DNA of 12,881 nucleotides. Origin: Elainellaceae cyanobacterium. Lineage in GTDB: Bacteria > Cyanobacteriota > Cyanobacteriia > CAZCXK01. Position 1 is the first letter of the stretch, and each line of letters begins with the position of its first letter. A program made the translations under genes and the position numbers. The notes below the pieces were generated by a model. The model saw only the letters and a list, made by a program, of their open reading frames with translations. It was not told the origin of the DNA and searched no databases. The stretch covers positions 11,114 through 23,994 of the forward strand of contig JBNPEG010000246.1 of the NCBI GenBank assembly GCA_051117555.1. Reading direction: 5' to 3'. Positions 4,678-11,550 of the stretch are shown piece by piece.

Positions 4678-5907
<1,230 letters not shown>

Positions 5908-6201
5908 CTACACACAACAGCGAAGAAACGGCTGAACCAGCCCAGTTTCCATCGCCGATTTCTAGAATCGAAACCTTAATACTCAAGACCAGATTGCTGG
6001 CTTTCGATGCGATCGCGCCAGCGTACCAATCTGTTCCCCAACATTCACCGATCGCGTCCTTATCGGGCGTGCAGTTCATCTGTAAAAATAGAGGACTATT
6101 CTGAGATGATACTCTTCTCTTGAGATTGAGGATAGAGGGGAACACACCATTAACTAATATTTTATTAAGGCAAGATATTGGAGCCGGATGTCGTAGACGC
6201 G

Positions 6202-7131
6202 TTACTCTTCGTTATCATGCTCTGGAATATCGGCTACTGCTTGCAGTTGACCATAAGTTCCCTCAGCAAATCCAGTGAATTTATACTGAGAGTTGCTGTT
6301 TGCCTTGGCAGAAAGTTCTAAATGTTTCCAGGTTAATCCCTGATCAGAGTGTCTCCAATAGTGAACCGCTTCAATCGCAGCCTTAATCTGTGGGCTTCGA
6401 GTATTAACCTGCTTCAAGGCAATTTCAATATCTTGATCTGAAGCTTCACGCAAATTAATCCGATGTTCTGGCGGTGTGACCGATGAGGGCTTTCCAGAAA
6501 ACCTTAGCTGTTGCTGAATATCATCCAGTTTTTCTAAAACCTTTTTTAAATCGTCCAAACTATTGCTTGCGTTGCTGAGACTATCAATTCTGTAATGTAG
6601 AACTTTTAATTTTTCATCCAAATCACTTCTAATTCCATTGAGGAGAGGAGTGATTGAATTCCTAATCGAATTAGTAGTAAGTTGAAGTTTTTGATCGATC
6701 AGAACGGCAATATCAGAATCTATAGAATCAGGACCTTTTGTAGATGTTTGGGTTTCTTGAATACCTCCCGTTAACATTTCCATTTCATCAATGGCAGCGA
6801 TCGCCTGTTCATCGGTCATATCAAAGACCCATGCCCACACCTTTTCAATATCTAGCTCTTGAGCAACCTGTAGCCAATCAGCGCCATATACCAACTCATA
6901 TTCAATGTCTTCATCTTCATAGGCATCGGTGCGGCGTATGATCAGTGAAATCAAATTACTTTGATGAGCAAGGAGGCTTTTCTCAATAGCCTGTCGTTGC
7001 TCTAACGAAATCGTTTGTTTTCTAGAGTCGGGGAGGGCAATTTGAAAGGTATAAACTTGCCCATGATTAATGGGTTTGATGCCCAAGTTTTTACTAATAA
7101 GCTCACGCCGAATATCTTGACTCATGCTCAA
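6202..7131 (-). CDS. Degenerate ParB/Srx-like N-terminal domain + coiled coil + HhH(ComEA)-like C-terminal domain protein
   Basis: SNLISLIIRR...YELVYGADWLQVAQELDIEKVWAWV has the ParB-fold pattern; heptad-rich middle; INLREAS...AIEAVHYWR...FTGFAEGTYGQL is HhH-like; TAAGGAG SD overlaps the upstream stop; start TTG 7131 or ATG 7125. Confidence 0.7.
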   Translation of the reverse strand: MSMSQDIRRELISKNLGIKPINHGQVYTFQIALPDSRKQTISLEQRQAIEKSLLAHQSNLISLIIRRTDAYEDEDIEYELVYGADWLQVAQELDIEKVWAWVFDMTDEQAIAAIDEMEMLTGGIQETQTSTKGPDSIDSDIAVLIDQKLQLTTNSIRNSITPLLNGIRSDLDEKLKVLHYRIDSLSNASNSLDDLKKVLEKLDDIQQQLRFSGKPSSVTPPEHRINLREASDQDIEIALKQVNTRSPQIKAAIEAVHYWRHSDQGLTWKHLELSAKANSNSQYKFTGFAEGTYGQLQAVADIPEHDNEE

Positions 7132-7140
7132 TAGATCTCC

Positions 7141-8565
7141 TTAGATTACACTCATCAAGTGGCTAGCTAAATTTTCCAGCCTTGAAATTGCAGCTTGAGC
7201 CGATTCCCGATCTTGAGAACTCAATTCATCATCAAGTTCTGCGTGTTGAATCGGATAGCCCTGCTCAGGACATTTAGAAATAATATTTAATCGGGGTATC
7301 CACGTACTTTCTGGAAATAATTTGATGGCTCTATTTTCTGAGTTTTTAGTTAAGATATCCCGAAAAGATTCTTCCATCGAATGATTAAAGCTAGACGATC
7401 GCTGATCATACATACTCACAGCAATTCCCAGAATAGGCAATGGATCATCTTTGAAGTCTTCTACCTCTTCTACACGTCCAATTACATACTCCAAGGCTCG
7501 AATTGGGTAGGGTGACAGTTGGGTAGGAATTAAAATTCCTGATGATGCCATTAGCGATATGCTGTTAACCTTACCAAACGATGGAGGCGGGTCGATAAAA
7601 ACAAAATCATAGTCATGGTTTCTTAGCTTCTTGACCAGAATGCGATCGCTATCAACCGTCTGAATTAATTCGCTCTCCATCTTACTCAATCGTATATGAG
7701 ATGGAACGATATCTAATTGAATATCTCCCCAGCGCTTGCGATAAATTACATCATTGAGTTTAGTTCTTGGCTCTAGTAGTAGATGAGTAATGTCTTTCTT
7801 GCCTGCTAATTCGACATCATTTAAGGGGTCAATTCCCAGACCTGTTGATAAATTGGCTTGAGCGTCAATATCAATCAGCAGTACTCGTTTACCCAACTTC
7901 GTCAGCATTCCTGCTAGATTAATCGTCAATGTGGTTTTACCTACACCGCCTTTGTTATTAAAAACAGTAATAATCATAGACTTTCGTTCCTTCTGAGCTG
8001 GTTGACTGATCGGGTCGGACTTTACACCTAGGAGCCTTAACAGCGCTTGACTGGCAAATGCCTTTGAAATCGATTGAGCGAATTTAAATTGAATATGTTG
8101 CTGACTGCGATTTAGCGCGTCTTCTACTTTTAGGCAGGTTGCCTTGCTGAGCAGGTTATAGATCAGACCAAAATGTTCAGCTAGGGTTGACTGAGAATAT
8201 TCAGAAATCGTGACGACCTGCCCTTGATAGTGATACAGGAGATGAAACACGTAGCCATTTGTCAGCAGCCCAAGAATGGCCTTGGATTGCCGCATATATT
8301 CACTAATTTGCCAAACGCTCTGAGCGATTTTCTTGTTGGGTGCTTTTACCTCTATAACAAGATATGGCAGTTGATGCACCGATGAACTGGGAGGGTGAAC
8401 TAGGAAGTCCGCTTTATTTTTACCAATTCCAACTTGAGATTTCCAGTCAGCATCACGATAGCCAAGAATGGTGAGAAGCGGAAGCACAACCTTATACGTG
8501 ATGTCAGACTCATTACTCTCTGGAGTGATAGACTCAAGGAATTTTAGTTGAGGGAGAGTATTCAA
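7141..8565 (-). CDS. HsdR-N-like PD-(D/E)XK nuclease fused to ParA/Soj-family ATPase
   Basis: E19, D53, E72-x-K74, Q86xxxY90, LLTNG nuclease motifs; deviant Walker A KGGVGKT (K205), DIDAQAN, Walker B FVFIDPPP; TTG start. Confidence 0.9.
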   Translation of the reverse strand: MNTLPQLKFLESITPESNESDITYKVVLPLLTILGYRDADWKSQVGIGKNKADFLVHPPSSSVHQLPYLVIEVKAPNKKIAQSVWQISEYMRQSKAILGLLTNGYVFHLLYHYQGQVVTISEYSQSTLAEHFGLIYNLLSKATCLKVEDALNRSQQHIQFKFAQSISKAFASQALLRLLGVKSDPISQPAQKERKSMIITVFNNKGGVGKTTLTINLAGMLTKLGKRVLLIDIDAQANLSTGLGIDPLNDVELAGKKDITHLLLEPRTKLNDVIYRKRWGDIQLDIVPSHIRLSKMESELIQTVDSDRILVKKLRNHDYDFVFIDPPPSFGKVNSISLMASSGILIPTQLSPYPIRALEYVIGRVEEVEDFKDDPLPILGIAVSMYDQRSSSFNHSMEESFRDILTKNSENRAIKLFPESTWIPRLNIISKCPEQGYPIQHAELDDELSSQDRESAQAAISRLENLASHLMSVI

Positions 8566-8613
8566 AATATTAAGCCAGCCTACGCTCTCACCAGTTTAAC
8601 AGGGGACGATCTT

Positions 8614-8997
8614 ATGCAAATTACAACACCCGCGCTTTTATTTCCTGCAATTTCATTGCTGCTTTTAGCGTATACCAATCGGTTTCTGGTACTTGCACAA
8701 CTCATCAGACAACTACATAGTTCACGAGACACCGATAAGAGTCATTTAATCGTGCGTCAGATTTCGGGACTCCGCAAACGCATTATTCTAATCAAGCAAA
8801 TGCAATCCTTTGGAGTGATTAGCTTTCTATTGTGTACGGGATCGATGTTTTCGCTGTTCTTAAATCTGGAACCGATGGGCGAGATTTTATTTGGAATGAG
8901 CGTGTTGGCCTTATCGACATCTCTGATTTATTCACTGTATGAGGTCAGTATTTCAACCAATGCCCTATCCGTTGTTCTAGAAGATATGGATCGATAA
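8614..8997 (+). CDS. DUF2721-like small membrane protein
   Basis: MQITTPALLFPAISLLLLAYTNRFL start, about three hydrophobic segments; AGGGGA SD before ATG 8614 (the ORF-track start 8548 overlaps the neighbouring gene). Confidence 0.82.
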   Translation: MQITTPALLFPAISLLLLAYTNRFLVLAQLIRQLHSSRDTDKSHLIVRQISGLRKRIILIKQMQSFGVISFLLCTGSMFSLFLNLEPMGEILFGMSVLALSTSLIYSLYEVSISTNALSVVLEDMDR

Positions 8998-9005
8998 TCT
9001 TCTTT

Positions 9006-9027
9006 TCCATTAACGTTTTTTAATGGA
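9006..9027. terminator. Possible hairpin downstream of the DUF2721 gene
   Basis: TCCATTAA-cgtttt-TTAATGGA 8-bp stem, AT-rich and weak. Confidence 0.3.
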
Positions 9028-9069
9028 CGATCGTCACATTTACCGTCACATTTAAGAGATCATCACACT

Positions 9070-9100
9070 AAAAACGGCATCAGGAAATATCCCATGCCGC
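9070..9100 (-). terminator. Rho-independent terminator of infC
   Basis: Minus strand GCGGCATGGGA-TATT-TCCTGATGCCGT followed by TTTT. Confidence 0.65.
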
Positions 9101-9191
9101 TTCTAAAGGCGCTTTAAGACATCGCAGTGCTATGTCCCCACGCAAAAACTGTAAAAGTTTATGATTCTGACAATCTTTGATTCATCCGTGT

Positions 9192-9683
9192 CTAGGATGG
9201 AGCAACTTGAAGAATGAGCGATCGCCTATCAAATGATTGCACTTTGCCCGCATCACCCAAGTCGGTCACAACTCTTTCTAAAAGCTCTGCAGCGCGATCG
9301 CGGTGTTGATGCTCTCGCCCCCGAAGCCGAACTTGAAACTTAACGGAATCGCCCTTTTCTAACCATTTCAAAGCTTTCTTGATGCGAATGCCATAATCAT
9401 TGTCATCGACATTTGGACGAAGCTTGACTTCTTTCAGCGATGGCTTAGAACTCTGGCGCTGACGTTTCTTTTGCTGATATTGATGCTTACCATAGTCCAT
9501 GACCTTGGCAACCGGCGCATCTTTACTTTGAGAGACGACCACCAGATCAAGACCCGCATCTTGAGCCACTTGTAGGGCTTCGCGAGTGTTGATCATGCCA
9601 CGATTGTTATTCTCGTGGTCAATTAAAAGAACTTCGGGAGATTTAATTTGACGGTTGACTAATTGCTTCTGTGCTTTAGCGAT
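9192..9683 (-). CDS. infC: Translation initiation factor IF-3 (163 aa) with non-canonical ATC start
   Basis: VNRQIKSPEVLLID, EALQVAQDAGLDLVVV, KVMDYGK, KEVKLRP, LEKGDSVK, RLRGRE; AGGAGG 8 nt before ATC 9683; in-frame TAG five codons upstream. Confidence 0.93.
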   Translation of the reverse strand: MAKAQKQLVNRQIKSPEVLLIDHENNNRGMINTREALQVAQDAGLDLVVVSQSKDAPVAKVMDYGKHQYQQKKRQRQSSKPSLKEVKLRPNVDDNDYGIRIKKALKWLEKGDSVKFQVRLRGREHQHRDRAAELLERVVTDLGDAGKVQSFDRRSLILQVAPS

Positions 9684-9891: not shown

Positions 9892-11550
9892 ATGATGAAT
9901 ATCGATCCTAAATCGGGGCATCACGCTATCTTCATCCCGATTAAACGACCTCTGGTTCGCTGGCTTGTCTTAATTCTGCTTGGCTTAGGGCTGTTGTTTC
10001 GCGTCGCCAACCTTGATCAGCGTATTTATTGGGTGGATGAGGTCGCCACGTCAATTCGGGTGGCGGGCTATACCCGCGAGGAGGTTACTCAAACTCTTGC
10101 AAATGGGGAGGTCTGGGCGATCGCCCCTATACAGCACTATCAGCAGCTTACCTCTGAGCGAGGCTGGGCAGACACGCTTGACGCACTCAGGCAAAGCCCC
10201 GAACATGCACCGCTCTATTTCATCCTGGCTCGACTCTGGGTGCAGCTATTTGGCAGTTCAGTAGTGGCAATTCGTTCACTATCAGTCATTTGTAGCCTGA
10301 TGGCGCTGCCCTGTTTCTACTGGCTGGCGGTTGAATTGTTTAAGTCGCCATTGGTAGGCTGGATGGCGATTGGCCTGCTGTCAGTATCGCCCTTCTTCGT
10401 GGCATATGCTCAAGAAGCTCGCCCCTATAGCCTTTGGTCGGTGACGGTGCTGCTCTCTGGGATTGCTTTGTTGCAAGCCTTGCGGCTGAATACGAGAACC
10501 CGTTGGGGGCTCTATGCGCTGACATTAACGCTGACTCTCTACACGTCACTACTGTCGGTGTTTGTTGCACTTGGACAGGGCTTGTATGTTGCAGGGATGG
10601 CATGGTCTGCATCATCATTTCAGTCCAAAGGATTAATGCGTCGCTATTGGGCTGCAACAGGAGTGGCGATACTTGCCTTCTCACCATGGCTTATGGTCAT
10701 TGCTCATCACTGGACGATGCTGCAAGACAATACCACCTGGGCGCGATCGCCCCTCAATCCATTAGCAATGGTCGCAATCTGGCTGTACAGTCTTGCAGTT
10801 ATTGTTTTCGATGTATCTGTATCTGTAGATTTATCCATTGAGACAGTTGCGAAAGGGATAATGGCATCTGTCGTGCTTGGCATCATGGGGTATGCCGTTT
10901 ATTGGCTGTGGATGACAGCGTCGCGACGAACCGGATTATTTGTGATATTGCTGATCATTTCAACGCCCGCTGCTCTTATCAGCCTCGATCTGATTCGTGG
11001 CGGACAAGCCTCTGCGACCCCCAGATACTTGATTCCCTGCCAGTTGGGAATGCTGTTATCTGTGGCATATTTCCTGAGCGATCGCCTCACGTCATTCTCT
11101 CGCCAGCGCATGATACTTGGAATCACGGGGCTTTGGGTTACCCTCAGTCTTTGGTCGTGTGTTGGCAATCTTAACCGCACTCCAGACTATCAGAAGGCTC
11201 GAAACCAAGCAAACCCGGCGATCGCTGCCATTCTCAACCAAGCCCCGGCATCAATTCTGATTGCTGAACCTGAGTACGCAATGGATGTAGTATCGCTTAG
11301 TTATGCGTTAAATTCTGATCTGCGCATTCAAATTGTGTCTGCTGATAACGCGGTTTTTGAACAAGGTCACGAGTACAAGTACGATAACAGCGTGTTTATT
11401 CTCAATCCGTCGGATGCACTACGACGCCGTATTGAAAGGGGCGATCGCTTCGATGTAGAAAAAGTCTATCAACCTGAATTATTGACACCCGATGATGTGC
11501 ATTTATCGCTATGGAAGCTTCAACTCGATTCAAATCCTGAAAGTAGATAA
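9892..11550 (+). CDS. GT-C fold glycosyltransferase family 39 (PMT_2/ArnT-like) membrane protein
   Basis: LLFRVANL...YWVDE, EHAPLYF, AIRSLSV, SPFFVAYAQEARPYSL, PRYLIP motifs; many TM helices. Confidence 0.88.
   Translation: MMNIDPKSGHHAIFIPIKRPLVRWLVLILLGLGLLFRVANLDQRIYWVDEVATSIRVAGYTREEVTQTLANGEVWAIAPIQHYQQLTSERGWADTLDALRQSPEHAPLYFILARLWVQLFGSSVVAIRSLSVICSLMALPCFYWLAVELFKSPLVGWMAIGLLSVSPFFVAYAQEARPYSLWSVTVLLSGIALLQALRLNTRTRWGLYALTLTLTLYTSLLSVFVALGQGLYVAGMAWSASSFQSKGLMRRYWAATGVAILAFSPWLMVIAHHWTMLQDNTTWARSPLNPLAMVAIWLYSLAVIVFDVSVSVDLSIETVAKGIMASVVLGIMGYAVYWLWMTASRRTGLFVILLIISTPAALISLDLIRGGQASATPRYLIPCQLGMLLSVAYFLSDRLTSFSRQRMILGITGLWVTLSLWSCVGNLNRTPDYQKARNQANPAIAAILNQAPASILIAEPEYAMDVVSLSYALNSDLRIQIVSADNAVFEQGHEYKYDNSVFILNPSDALRRRIERGDRFDVEKVYQPELLTPDDVHLSLWKLQLDSNPESR

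What the first reader, a model, noticed from the sequence alone, without database searches (positions are those of the whole stretch)
6202..8565. Nuclease-ParA fusion plus atypical ParB-like partner: candidate defence or DNA-surveillance module
Seen: a tight two-gene operon (stop TAA overlaps the SD TAAGGAG of gene 2), visibly AT-richer than its neighbours (roughly 40% against 50% GC by eye), lying among ordinary housekeeping-type genes. Gene 1 has a full HsdR-N-type catalytic set (E19, D53, E72xK74, QxxxY) fused to an intact ParA ATPase. No methyltransferase, HsdS, helicase, Rep or canonical parS is in the window. Known: ParA partition ATPases do not normally carry nucleases, and nuclease+NTPase pairs are a common anti-phage/anti-plasmid architecture. 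Inference: a ParAB-derived switch in which the ParB-like partner gates or targets the nuclease. I recall similar fusions in cyanobacteria carrying only generic annotations, but cannot confirm that here.
Basis: partly seen in the sequence, partly recalled or inferred. Interest (0 to 1): 0.82.

Follow-up and report, generated by a model that had tools for sequence, protein, structure and literature searches.

The report
Nuclease-ParA with degenerate ParB partner
A cyanobacterial two-gene cassette joins a restriction-type nuclease to a ParA ATPase and pairs it with a ParB-like DNA-binding protein that has lost its CTP motif; it fits a recently predicted but untested class of bacterial immune systems.

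Summary
On the minus strand, 7141-8565 encodes a 474-aa protein. Its N-terminal domain is an HsdR-N-type PD-(D/E)xK nuclease with an intact catalytic set. Its C-terminal domain is a Soj-like ParA ATPase. Nine bases downstream, 6202-7131 encodes a 309-aa protein with a ParB-N/sulfiredoxin fold in which GERR has become GADW. That is followed by a coiled coil and a helix-hairpin-helix (HhH)-like C-terminal domain.

- **Pairing:** gene 1 lies directly upstream of gene 2 in 59 of 66 related cyanobacterial loci.
- **Distribution:** patchy, in 20 of 401 sampled cyanobacterial genomes.
- **Composition:** lower in G+C than its flanks in 52 of 52 loci.
- **Selection:** both genes are under purifying selection.
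- **Partner variability:** the partner's C-terminal DNA-binding domain has been exchanged at least 14 times, even between systems whose nuclease-ParA is 94-96% identical.

This architecture matches the "effector-ParAB system" predicted to be immune by Li, Burroughs and Aravind (bioRxiv, October 2026). No experiment exists for it. The locus is therefore a new member of a known, uncharacterised kind.

The immune reading is plausible but unproven. Most neighbours are housekeeping genes, the gene tree tracks taxonomy, there is no specific PADLOC match, and the partner gene was found on none of the plasmid or phage records searched.

The parts
7141..8565 (-). Gene 1: 474-aa nuclease-ParA fusion (TTG start at 8565, TAA stop at 7143-7141)
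   Evidence: ORF and translation. Homologues begin at the same position. Pfam HSDR_N_2 plus AAA_31/CbiA. AlphaFold model mean pLDDT 80.7.
8107..8526 (-). PD-(D/E)xK nuclease domain (residues about 14-153) with E19, D53, E72-x-K74, Q86xxxY90
   Evidence: VIA-align 2 matches: HsdR N-terminal fragment 3h1t Z 12.2 (121 residues aligned, rmsd 3.1), BpuSI 3s1s Z 11.6, DrdV 7lo5 Z 11.3. Catalytic residues kept in 61-63 of 63 homologues.
7978..8106 (-). Helical stalk and variable linker (residues about 154-196; 182-194 disordered in the model)
   Evidence: pLDDT below 50 at residues 182-194. Length and sequence vary in the alignment.
7144..7977 (-). Soj-type ParA ATPase domain (residues 197-474) with deviant Walker A KGGVGKT, including signature lysine K205
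   Evidence: ParA 8ray Z 30.3, McdA 6noo Z 27.1. Best sequence hits in the PDB are T. thermophilus Soj 1wcv (E 4.1e-24) and H. pylori Soj. K205, K210, D232, D234 and D325 are each kept in 63 of 63 homologues.
7137..7143 (-). Stop codon of gene 1 (TAA) abutting the GGAG Shine-Dalgarno of gene 2
   Evidence: Read directly from the sequence.
6202..7131 (-). Gene 2: 309-aa (307 aa from the ATG at 7125) degenerate ParB-like partner
   Evidence: ORF. 189 homologues at E <= 0.001, all without a name or named hypothetical/ParB-like. Gene 1 lies directly upstream in 59 of 66 loci.
7078..7125 (-). N-terminal basic peptide (MSQDIRRELI...; R8 nearly invariant), candidate ParA-contacting and ATPase-stimulating tail
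   Evidence: Conservation in 26 homologues. The function is inferred by analogy with the N-terminal peptides of ParB/Spo0J (recalled; not tested here).
6760..7077 (-). ParB-N/sulfiredoxin-fold domain (residues about 19-124) lacking the GERR arginine patch (GADW instead)
   Evidence: Foldseek: Noc 7ol9_B E 3.4e-5, ParB 7bm8/6sdk. VIA-align 2: PadC Z 11.3, KorB Z 10.7. The phmmer alignment puts YGADWLQVA opposite AGERRWRAV of Noc. Pfam ParB_N hits 17 of 26 members at E <= 1.
6499..6723 (-). Variable coiled-coil region (residues about 137-211)
   Evidence: Long helices of low confidence in the model. Only coiled-coil-type hits in Pfam and PDB profile searches. Length varies among homologues.
6217..6468 (-). 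C-terminal HhH-like DNA-binding domain (residues about 222-305)
   Evidence: pLDDT about 92. ComEA 8dss Z 5.2, GspK/XcpX Z 5.0-5.2. Six of 10 structural neighbour clusters in the ESM Atlas have PF12836 HHH_3 as the aligned part, and a seventh carries it in 14% of members; TM 0.50-0.59, all scored "under the bar" by the tool. No Pfam HhH family hits by sequence.

Best explanation
The locus is a member of the "effector-ParAB" class: a chromosomal two-gene cassette derived from a ParAB partition system and predicted to act against invading DNA.

Gene 1 joins an intact restriction-type PD-(D/E)xK nuclease to a Soj-like ParA ATPase. Gene 2 is a ParB-N-fold protein without the CTP-binding arginine patch. 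It carries a coiled coil and a sequence-independent HhH DNA-binding domain in place of the parS-reading HTH.

Proposed mechanism (inferred, not shown):
1. ATP drives the ParA domains into a sandwich dimer that binds DNA non-specifically. This brings two nuclease heads together so they can cut both strands.
2. The gene 2 protein, tethered to DNA through its exchangeable C-terminal domain and probably dimerised by the coiled coil, meets the ParA dimer through its conserved basic N-terminal peptide and ParB-N domain.
3. That contact either recruits the nuclease to the DNA on which gene 2 sits, or stimulates ATP hydrolysis and so limits how long the nuclease stays on host DNA.
4. The net effect is restriction of foreign DNA, or of the host chromosome as a last resort.

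Shown here: the domain identities, conservation of the catalytic and ATPase residues, loss of GERR, strict gene pairing, the accessory distribution, and the modular exchange of the partner's DNA-binding domain.

Inferred: dimer-licensed cleavage, the regulatory contact, and the immune role.
For: **Architecture.** Pfam HSDR_N_2 plus ParA. Fold matches to the nuclease heads of HsdR-N, BpuSI and DrdV (Z 11.3-12.2) and to ParA (Z 30.3). Gene 2 has the ParB/Noc/KorB/PadC fold with GERR replaced by GADW, and an HhH-like C-terminus.

**Residue conservation.** E19 62/63, D53 62/63, E72 63/63, K74 63/63, Y90 63/63. Walker A K205 and K210 63/63.

**Pairing.** Gene 1 ends less than 200 nt before gene 2 in 59 of 66 loci that have enough upstream DNA.

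**Accessory character.**
- Present in 19 of 401 genomes with the full-length query and 20 of 401 with the nuclease domain alone; 15-16 of 151 genera.
- The window's flanking genes recur in only 1 of 71 related loci.
- A same-family genome carries the pair on a different contig from the CNNM neighbour.
- Pair G+C is below the flanks in 52 of 52 loci, by 7.4 points on average.
- Degraded copies occur: L038 carries a deletion fusion; L047 and L067 give only partial matches; G147, G080 and G183 have an internal stop or a partial match.

**Conflict-type modularity.** The partner's C-terminus falls into window-type HhH (36), Rho_N/HeH (23), ComEA-like HhH (5) and other (3) among 67 homologues. At least 14 class changes are needed on the gene 1 tree of 59 rows. 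Four pairs have gene 1 94-96% identical but unalignable partner C-termini.

**Not the housekeeping partition system.** A canonical ParA plus ParB_N pair (94 bits) lies on contig C97, and a second pair on C48.

**Published prediction.** The same architecture is described, with the same domain options and a cyanobacterial bias, in sections 15 and 41 of 10.64898/2026.10.19.760177.
Against: There is no experimental evidence for any member.

- PADLOC gives only a weak P-loop hit (PDC-M28B, E 5.5e-8 over 60 residues) and sub-threshold Cas4 hits.
- Among 135 representative neighbour proteins from 32 loci, most are housekeeping: IleRS, glycosyltransferases, MreBCD, ribosomal proteins, IF3. The only strong defence-type neighbour is an SspH-like FtsK nuclease in 4 loci.
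- The gene 1 tree follows taxonomy: Nostocales, 25 rows, need 2 changes.
- Whole families keep the pair: f1 in all 4 genomes examined (G000, G141, G401, G402), f19 in 5 of 5.
- Both genes are under purifying selection at the level of their neighbours: dN/dS 0.060 and 0.179 against 0.019-0.180.
- The ParA domain is unusually conserved for an arms-race protein, 55-60% identical across orders.
- Gene 2 has no match in 72,556 plasmid or 50,697 phage records.
- The HhH assignment rests on weak structural scores (Z about 5, TM 0.5-0.6).
Confidence: 0.55

Rival explanations
1. A housekeeping or lineage-specific positioning or partition system. The ParA gradient on the nucleoid, together with the ParB-like adaptor, positions chromosome copies or another cargo in polyploid cyanobacteria. 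The nuclease-fold domain serves only as an extra DNA-binding or regulatory module.
For: - The ParA domain is closest to chromosomal Soj and to McdA and is highly conserved.
- The gene tree tracks taxonomy, and the pair is retained in whole families.
- Both genes are under strong purifying selection.
- Neighbours are mostly housekeeping.
- Gene 2 was not found on plasmids or phages.
Against: - The full catalytic set of the nuclease is kept in 62-63 of 63 homologues, which argues against a purely structural role.
- The pair is present in only 20 of 401 sampled cyanobacterial genomes.
- A canonical ParA-ParB pair exists elsewhere in the same genome.
- The partner has lost the CTP motif and the HTH.
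- The window has no parS-like pattern or notable repeats.
- The partner's C-terminal domain is exchanged frequently.
- G+C is consistently lower than the flanks.
Confidence: 0.15
2. A selfish addiction (toxin-antitoxin-like) cassette. The nuclease-ParA is a DNA-damaging toxin held in check by the ParB-like partner, and the pair persists because its loss kills the cell, with no benefit against invaders.
For: - A tight two-gene operon with overlapping translation signals.
- Strict co-occurrence.
- An AT-rich cassette with variable neighbourhoods.
- Occasional neighbours of TA type: HepT, PIN, UPF0175.
Against: - No association with plasmids, phages, integrases or transposases in most loci.
- The tree tracks taxonomy rather than showing promiscuous transfer.
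- Degraded copies exist in which both genes decay together, for example the L038 deletion fusion. That would be lethal for a classical addiction pair with a stable toxin.
- The partner is large and modular, unlike typical antitoxins.
Confidence: 0.12
3. A host DNA-processing device. It would carry out ATP-gated cleavage of the cell's own or incoming DNA for physiology rather than defence, for example trimming chromosome copies, programmed DNA degradation in differentiating or dying cells of filaments, or handling of transforming DNA (the C-terminus is ComEA-like).
For: - The HhH domain resembles ComEA.
- The preprint reports enrichment in multicellular taxa, and most loci are from filamentous cyanobacteria.
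- Long vertical retention and purifying selection.
- In 4 Nostocales loci the pair sits beside an exonuclease-PD-(D/E)XK-FtsK translocase.
Against: - It is also kept in all 5 sampled genomes of family f19, which have small genomes (2.4-3.5 Mb).
- Most filamentous genomes lack it: family f7, 4 of 46.
- No linkage to competence or differentiation genes was seen in 32 loci.
Confidence: 0.1

Closest known systems
Effector-ParAB system (Li, Burroughs and Aravind, bioRxiv 10.64898/2026.10.19.760177, October 2026; computational prediction)
   Same: - An operonic ParA-ParB pair.
- An effector domain N-terminal to ParA, most commonly a restriction endonuclease domain.
- A ParB domain predicted to be inactive.
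- A variable nucleic-acid-binding domain (HhH or Rho-N-type HeH) in place of the ParB HTH.
- Over-representation in cyanobacteria.

All of these were met here.
   Different: Nothing architectural differs. I could not see the preprint's supplements, so I cannot say whether this very family is in their set.

Added here:
- Most loci are not in defence islands.
- The tree tracks taxonomy.
- Purifying selection matches that of the neighbours.
- The pair is AT-richer than its flanks in 52 of 52 loci.
- The partner's C-terminal domain is swapped between near-identical systems.
Classical chromosomal ParABS (Soj/Spo0J)
   Same: A Soj-like deviant Walker A ATPase (1wcv E 4.1e-24; 8ray Z 30.3). A ParB-N fold in the partner. 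Gene order ParA then ParB. A basic N-terminal tail on the partner.
   Different: - A nuclease is fused to ParA.
- GERR is lost.
- There is no HTH and no parS.
- The distribution is patchy.
- The genome has a separate canonical pair.
HsdR N-terminal nuclease domain of type I, and nuclease heads of type IIG/IIL restriction enzymes (3h1t, BpuSI 3s1s, DrdV 7lo5)
   Same: The PD-(D/E)xK fold with E...D...ExK and QxxxY.
   Different: There is no SF2 translocase, methyltransferase or specificity subunit in the window. The motor here is a ParA-type dimerising ATPase, not a helicase-like translocase.
McdAB carboxysome positioning system
   Same: A cyanobacterial ParA-family ATPase with a non-canonical partner; structural match to Cyanothece McdA 6noo at Z 27.1.
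   Different: McdB has no ParB fold and McdA has no nuclease domain (recalled). No carboxysome genes are nearby. The distribution is patchy.
Repurposed ParB-fold proteins (Noc, KorB, PadC)
   Same: The ParB-N fold is used outside chromosome segregation.
   Different: Those proteins bind CTP (recalled from the entry titles and the literature). This one lacks the arginine patch.

Membership tests
Effector-ParAB system (Li, Burroughs and Aravind 2026) | Operonic coupling of a ParA gene and a ParB-fold gene | tested here: met
   A 9-nt gap with the stop codon abutting the SD. Adjacent in 59 of 66 loci.
Effector-ParAB system (Li, Burroughs and Aravind 2026) | Enzymatic effector domain fused N-terminal to ParA (most often a restriction endonuclease) | tested here: met
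   HSDR_N_2. HsdR-N Z 12.2. Catalytic residues in 62-63 of 63 homologues.
Effector-ParAB system (Li, Burroughs and Aravind 2026) | ParB domain with a degenerate (predicted inactive) nucleotide site | tested here: met
   ParB fold. GERR aligns to GADW. The motif is G(A/S)(D/E)(W/L) across 25 of the 26 aligned homologues (the 26th is N-terminally truncated).
Effector-ParAB system (Li, Burroughs and Aravind 2026) | Variable nucleic-acid-binding domain (HhH, Rho-N HeH) C-terminal to ParB in place of the HTH | tested here: met
   Window copy: HhH-like by structure only, and weakly. Relatives: Rho_N E 5.5e-8 and HeH. Three main classes among 67 homologues.
Effector-ParAB system (Li, Burroughs and Aravind 2026) | ParA belongs to their ConB1 clade (conserved valine in Walker A) | tested here: inconclusive
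   KGGVGKT with V208 invariant in 24 sequences. That valine is common in ParA proteins, and I built no tree against their reference clades.
Effector-ParAB system (Li, Burroughs and Aravind 2026) | Immune (anti-selfish-element) function | not testable with these tools
   The literature holds only a prediction. Context evidence here is mixed.
Classical ParABS partition system | CTP-binding ParB with GERRxR, an HTH, and a cognate parS | tested here: not met
   GADW instead of GERR. No HTH in the model. 0 parS matches.
Type I restriction-modification (HsdR) | SF2 helicase-like motor in the same protein, plus HsdM/HsdS partners | tested here: not met
   Only the nuclease head is present. No helicase, methyltransferase or specificity domains among 12 window ORFs.
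Known defence systems in PADLOC-DB v2 | A specific model hit over most of the protein | tested here: not met
   Gene 1: PDC-M28B E 5.5e-8 over residues 176-235 only, and Cas4 at E 0.019. Gene 2: no hits.

The most novel reading that the evidence does not exclude
Self and non-self are told apart by neither sequence nor modification, but by occupancy. The CTP-dead ParB-like protein coats the resident nucleoid through its generic HhH/HeH tether, and its N-terminal peptide keeps firing the ParA ATPase, so nuclease dimers never dwell on host DNA. Newly entered DNA that is not yet coated lets the ATP-locked dimer persist and cut. The frequent swapping of the tether domain would then be a response to invader proteins that mimic or strip the coat.
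Probability: 0.2. Interest if true: 0.8.

Novelty: new member of a known kind. Interest (0 to 1): 0.45.

Why it matters
If the prediction is right, this is a restriction device whose motor is a ParA dimerisation switch rather than a helicase. It would have no methyltransferase and so a different logic of self-protection.

Its carriers appear to include Thermosynechococcus-type strains, which I recall as genetically tractable. I infer this from genome sizes and one locus title; it is not shown by name. If so, the published but untested "effector-ParAB" idea could be tested directly.

The comparative results here sharpen what such a test should look for: strict pairing, exchange of the DNA tether between near-identical systems, long vertical retention, and the absence of defence-island context. 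They also caution that an immune role is not yet the only reasonable reading.

Tried and rejected
- **Complex prediction** (gene 1 with residues 1-125 of gene 2) was not available. Binding and the interface remain untested.
- **RNA evidence:** no RNA holder is listed for the stretch.
- **Pfam by sequence** finds no HhH family in any of 26 gene 2 homologues.
- **Profile search of A2 against PDB sequences** returned only coiled-coil noise.
- **Promoter and terminator scan** of 5800-9300: 2 promoter-like sites against 8.2 expected and 2 terminator-like against 2.7 expected, so uninformative.
- **Repeats:** only short chance-level repeats around the operon.
- **Empty-site test:** the DUF2721 neighbour was found at E <= 1e-10 in only 4 of 41 relatives. 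Three of these are the window's own genus including G000, and the fourth is a 44%-identical match elsewhere. No genome with the same flanks but without the pair could be found.
- **McdAB reading** was rejected: there is no carboxysome context, and the partner has a ParB fold.
- **Type I R-M fragment reading** was rejected: there is no motor, HsdM or HsdS, and the fusion is conserved as such in 120 of the 120 listed homologues.
- **Literature:** two searches for an experimental study of such fusions found none beyond the preprint. One search term was rejected for syntax, as was one find term (re-sent).
Full report
**Observation.** The window carries two co-directional ORFs on the minus strand, 7141..8565 (474 aa, TTG start) and 6202..7131 (309 aa). 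The TAA of the first is followed at once by GGAG. A TTG lies 5 nt further on and an ATG 11 nt further on, and most homologues start at the position of the ATG. The pair has 41.0% G+C against 47.8% for the rest of the window. The other ORFs are ordinary: LysR regulator, DUF1257, FGGY kinase, CNNM-CBS, DUF2721, IF3, PMT_2 glycosyltransferase and a peptidoglycan-binding protein. None is a methyltransferase, HsdS, helicase or Rep protein. The canonical parS pattern has no match with up to three mismatches, and only chance-level repeats surround the operon.

**Gene 1.** Pfam gives HSDR_N_2 (residues 44-108, E 2.2e-6) and AAA_31/CbiA ParA (198-410, E 5.4e-43). An AlphaFold model built on 24 homologues has mean pLDDT 80.7, with a disordered linker at 182-194.
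- Searched against 48,161 solved chains, residues 194-474 match ParA (8ray Z 30.3, rmsd 2.2, 251 aligned) and Cyanothece McdA (6noo Z 27.1).
- Residues 14-153 match the HsdR N-terminal fragment 3h1t (Z 12.2, 121 aligned) and the nuclease heads of BpuSI (Z 11.6) and DrdV (Z 11.3).
- By sequence, the ATPase is closest to Thermus and Helicobacter Soj.
- In 63 homologues taken from genomes, conservation is: E19 62, D53 62, E72 63, K74 63, Q86 61, Y90 63. The deviant Walker A lysines K205 and K210 and the aspartates D232, D234 and D325 are each kept in 63. The one gap is a truncated contig.

Both the nuclease and the ATPase therefore look active.

**Gene 2.** No Pfam or NCBIfam model passes on the window protein, but 17 of 26 homologues touch ParB_N at E <= 1 (best 1.4e-5). 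The model (pLDDT 69.7) has three parts: a confident domain at about 19-124, long low-confidence helices at 137-211, and a confident domain at 222-305.
- **First domain.** It has the ParB/Noc/sulfiredoxin fold: Foldseek 7ol9_B E 3.4e-5, with 12 hits at E <= 0.001; PadC Z 11.3, KorB Z 10.7, pNOB8 ParB-N Z 9.9. In the phmmer alignment to Noc, YELIAGERRWRAV faces YELVYGADWLQVA, so the arginine patch that holds CTP in ParB proteins is gone.
- **Last domain.** It resembles ComEA (Z 5.2, 64 aligned, rmsd 2.4) and the HhH-bearing GspK/XcpX (Z 5.0-5.2). In the ESM Atlas, six of ten structural neighbour clusters have HHH_3 as the aligned part, and a seventh carries it in 14% of members (TM 0.50-0.59, flagged "under the bar" by the tool). 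I treat the HhH assignment as moderately supported.
- **N-terminus.** MSQDIRRELI... is conserved, with R8 nearly invariant. By analogy with the ParA-stimulating tails of ParB proteins (recalled, not tested), this is a candidate contact peptide.

**Relatives and pairing.** The fusion protein has many full-length relatives. The 120 best listed are 55-100% identical over at least 76% of the query, and wherever a source names the organism it is a cyanobacterium, apart from one bin labelled Actinomycetota. Gene 2 has 189 relatives at E <= 0.001. A scan of one genome per GTDB species with the gene 2 alignment returned 71 loci. All are cyanobacterial by title except two metagenomic bins. In the gene 1 tree, the contigs of those two bins nest inside Oscillatoriales and are probably misbinned. 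In 59 of the 66 loci with at least 1.5 kb upstream, a gene 1 homologue ends less than 200 nt before gene 2. The seven exceptions are:
- three degraded or partial copies (L038, L047, L067);
- one fragment (L098);
- one locus with an extra gene 2-like ORF in between (L065);
- two loci of a divergent three-gene variant (L066, L068).

**Distribution and context.**
- In 401 cyanobacterial genomes drawn evenly from the phylum, 19 have a full-length match at E <= 1e-60 (15 of 151 genera).
- In that scan only four candidates per genome were scored, so I repeated it with the nuclease domain alone. That gave 20 of 401 (16 of 151 genera) and the same genomes plus one weak hit.
- Presence is clustered. 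The window's own family f1 has it in all 4 genomes examined, f19 in 5 of 5, f15 in 2 of 3, f7 in 4 of 46, f3 in 1 of 26, f18 in 0 of 33, and 12 further families in 0 of 217.
- The window's flanking genes recur only in the closest relative, L028, out of 71 loci.
- A same-family genome of another genus has the pair (63% identity) on a different contig from its CNNM orthologue (84% identity).
- The gene 1 tree nevertheless follows taxonomy: Nostocales, 25 rows, need two changes, and all eight groups need 12 changes against a shuffled mean of 22.4.
- In 52 of 52 loci the pair has lower G+C than its flanks (mean -7.4 points), while tracking host G+C from 27% to 48%.
- Against L028, dN/dS is 0.060 for gene 1 and 0.179 for gene 2. 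This lies within the range of the five flanking genes (0.019-0.180), and dS is similar, so the pair has been resident since those two genomes split.
- Gene 2 has no match in 72,556 plasmid or 50,697 phage records. The nuclease domain hits a single haloarchaeal HsdR-N protein on a plasmid.
- The genome holds a canonical ParA plus ParB_N pair on contig C97, and a second ParA/ParB-like pair on C48.

**Neighbourhoods.** I called ORFs within about 5.5 kb on either side of the pair in 32 loci with full flanks, out of the 34 that have them. L038 and L047 were dropped as degraded. The 328 ORFs were clustered, and 135 representatives were scanned; singletons under 125 aa were dropped.
- Pfam shows mainly housekeeping functions.
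- Items typical of conflict or mobile DNA occur sporadically: Uma2 (2), HepT, PIN, UPF0175, an IS605 OrfB, a Mutator transposase, an nSTAND1-WD40 protein and a CHAT protein.
- PADLOC adds only one notable hit. An 861-aa neighbour, combining a 3'-5' exonuclease, a PD-(D/E)XK domain and FtsK domains, matches the C-terminus of SspH at E 3.8e-70. It is present in 4 loci, with fragments in others.

Defence-island context is therefore not general.

**Modularity of the partner.** All 67 complete gene 2 homologues keep the N-terminal ParB-like domain, but their C-termini fall into classes:
- the window's HhH-like type, 36;
- a Rho_N/HeH type, 23 (Pfam Rho_N E 5.5e-8 and HeH E 5.3e-5 on one member);
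- a ComEA-like HhH type, 5;
- three others, one of which is a frameshifted copy.

On the gene 1 tree these three main classes need at least 14 changes among 59 rows, where the minimum possible is 2. The tree has 21 unresolved forks, so the count is approximate. More directly, four pairs of loci have gene 1 94-96% identical and the gene 2 N-domain 90-94% identical, yet C-terminal 90-residue stretches that do not align at all. The DNA tether is thus exchanged on a short time scale while the rest is conserved.

**Comparison with what is known.** A bioRxiv preprint of October 2026 (Li, Burroughs, Aravind; 10.64898/2026.10.19.760177) defines an "effector-ParAB system". I read the abstract, sections 11, 15, 16 and 41, and search passages; its supplements are closed. 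The definition is an operonic ParA-ParB pair with three features:
- an effector N-terminal to ParA, most commonly a restriction endonuclease domain;
- a ParB predicted to be inactive;
- a variable nucleic-acid-binding domain such as HhH or Rho-N-type HeH in place of the HTH.

The preprint reports over-representation in multicellular taxa such as cyanobacteria. The authors propose that the ParB recognises invader DNA, recruits ParA into a static coat, and that the fused effector acts as a force multiplier or suicide back-up. Every architectural feature is met here; see the membership table. Their clade assignment (ConB1) I could only touch through the Walker A valine, which is not specific. Two further literature searches found no experimental work on such fusions. 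The locus fails the defining features of classical ParABS (no GERR, HTH or parS) and of type I restriction enzymes (no motor, HsdM or HsdS), and it has no specific PADLOC model.

**Mechanism.** What is shown:
- an apparently active PD-(D/E)xK nuclease tethered by a flexible linker to an apparently active, dimerising Soj-type ATPase;
- an obligately co-encoded ParB-fold protein that cannot bind CTP in the canonical way;
- a conserved basic N-terminal tail, a coiled coil and an exchangeable generic DNA-binding domain on that partner.

What I infer: ATP-driven ParA dimerisation on DNA pairs two nuclease heads for double-strand cleavage. The partner, bound to DNA through its tether, contacts the ParA dimer and either recruits it or resets it by stimulating hydrolysis. 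I give 0.55 to the overall reading that this is a conflict system acting on foreign DNA.

The points against an immune role are real: housekeeping context, taxonomy-tracking tree, family-wide retention, strong purifying selection, and no carriage on plasmids or phages. They keep three rivals alive: a positioning system (0.15), an addiction cassette (0.12) and a physiological DNA-processing device (0.10).

**Verdict.** The locus is a new member of a known, uncharacterised kind. Interest is moderate. It is not a discovery of a new class, but it is a clean candidate for the first experimental test of that class, apparently including genetically tractable carriers. The comparative facts above were not stated in the parts of the preprint I could read.

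Noticed in passing
L069, L076, L088, L091 (e.g. L076:12024-14609, minus strand); fragments in L070, L071, L057, L045: An 861-aa protein lies next to the pair in several Nostocales. It combines a 3'-5' exonuclease, a PD-(D/E)XK nuclease, FtsK_alpha and an FtsK/SpoIIIE ATPase, and its C-terminus matches PADLOC SspH at E 3.8e-70. No full homologue exists in the window's genome.
   Followed up: partly
L037, L056, L057, L069, L071, L076, L088 (e.g. L056:10944-13052, minus strand); own genome G000:C121:7958-9964 (L100): A protein of about 700 aa with only a weak AAA_16/AAA_22 P-loop signal recurs within 1-5 kb of the pair in 7 of 32 loci from at least three lineages. In four loci a 169-285-aa protein of no known family lies near it. 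The window's genome has a 39%-identical copy elsewhere, preceded by a 274-aa ORF.
   Followed up: partly
L050, L056, L057, L060, L069, L070, L071, L076, L077, L084, L091 (e.g. L077:7064-8065, minus strand): A second ParA gene without an effector domain (about 294-405 aa) sits upstream of the pair on the opposite strand in 11 of 32 loci. Its best matches in the window's genome are only 29-35% identical, and one of them is gene 1 itself, so the window's genome has no orthologue.
   Followed up: partly
L066 and L068 (e.g. L068:7216-8694, 8694-9602, 10001-11083): A three-gene variant: a divergent HSDR_N_2-ParA (27% identical to gene 1, with the catalytic E, D, E and K kept), then a protein with a Pfam-detectable ParB_N domain, then a gene 2-like protein with a HeH tail.
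   Followed up: partly
L065:8109-8876 and L065:10007-11155: Two gene 2-like genes lie in tandem behind one gene 1. The first has a Rho_N/HeH tail. The contig is labelled Actinomycetota but nests among Oscillatoriales in the gene 1 tree, as does L064 (labelled Obscuribacterales). Both are probably misbinned.
   Followed up: partly
L028:10920-13136 compared with window 5896-6201: In the closest relative, a 738-aa PAS histidine kinase sits between gene 2 and the CNNM-CBS gene. The window has only about 300 bp there, so this is an insertion or deletion polymorphism right beside the cassette.
   Followed up: no
window 9192-9596, minus strand: The IF3 ORF as listed is short (134 aa), and its Pfam IF3_N match begins at profile position 23. 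The real start is probably an unusual codon further upstream, as is common for infC (recalled), which the ATG/GTG/TTG ORF list cannot show.
   Followed up: no
window 8548-8620: The listed TTG start of the divergent DUF2721 ORF (8548) overlaps the start of gene 1 (8565) by 18 nt. The orthologue in L028 is 131 aa and the Pfam match starts at residue 26, so DUF2721 more likely starts at an ATG near 8613-8619. That leaves a divergent intergenic region of only about 50 bp.
   Followed up: no
L038:9301-10795; G147:C1:4867389-4868825; G080:C14:217768-218493; G183:C1:3479755-3481100: Degraded copies of the cassette. In L038 a deletion fuses residues 1-234 of gene 1 to residues 49-309 of gene 2. Copies in three sampled genomes have an internal stop or give only partial matches.
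   Followed up: partly
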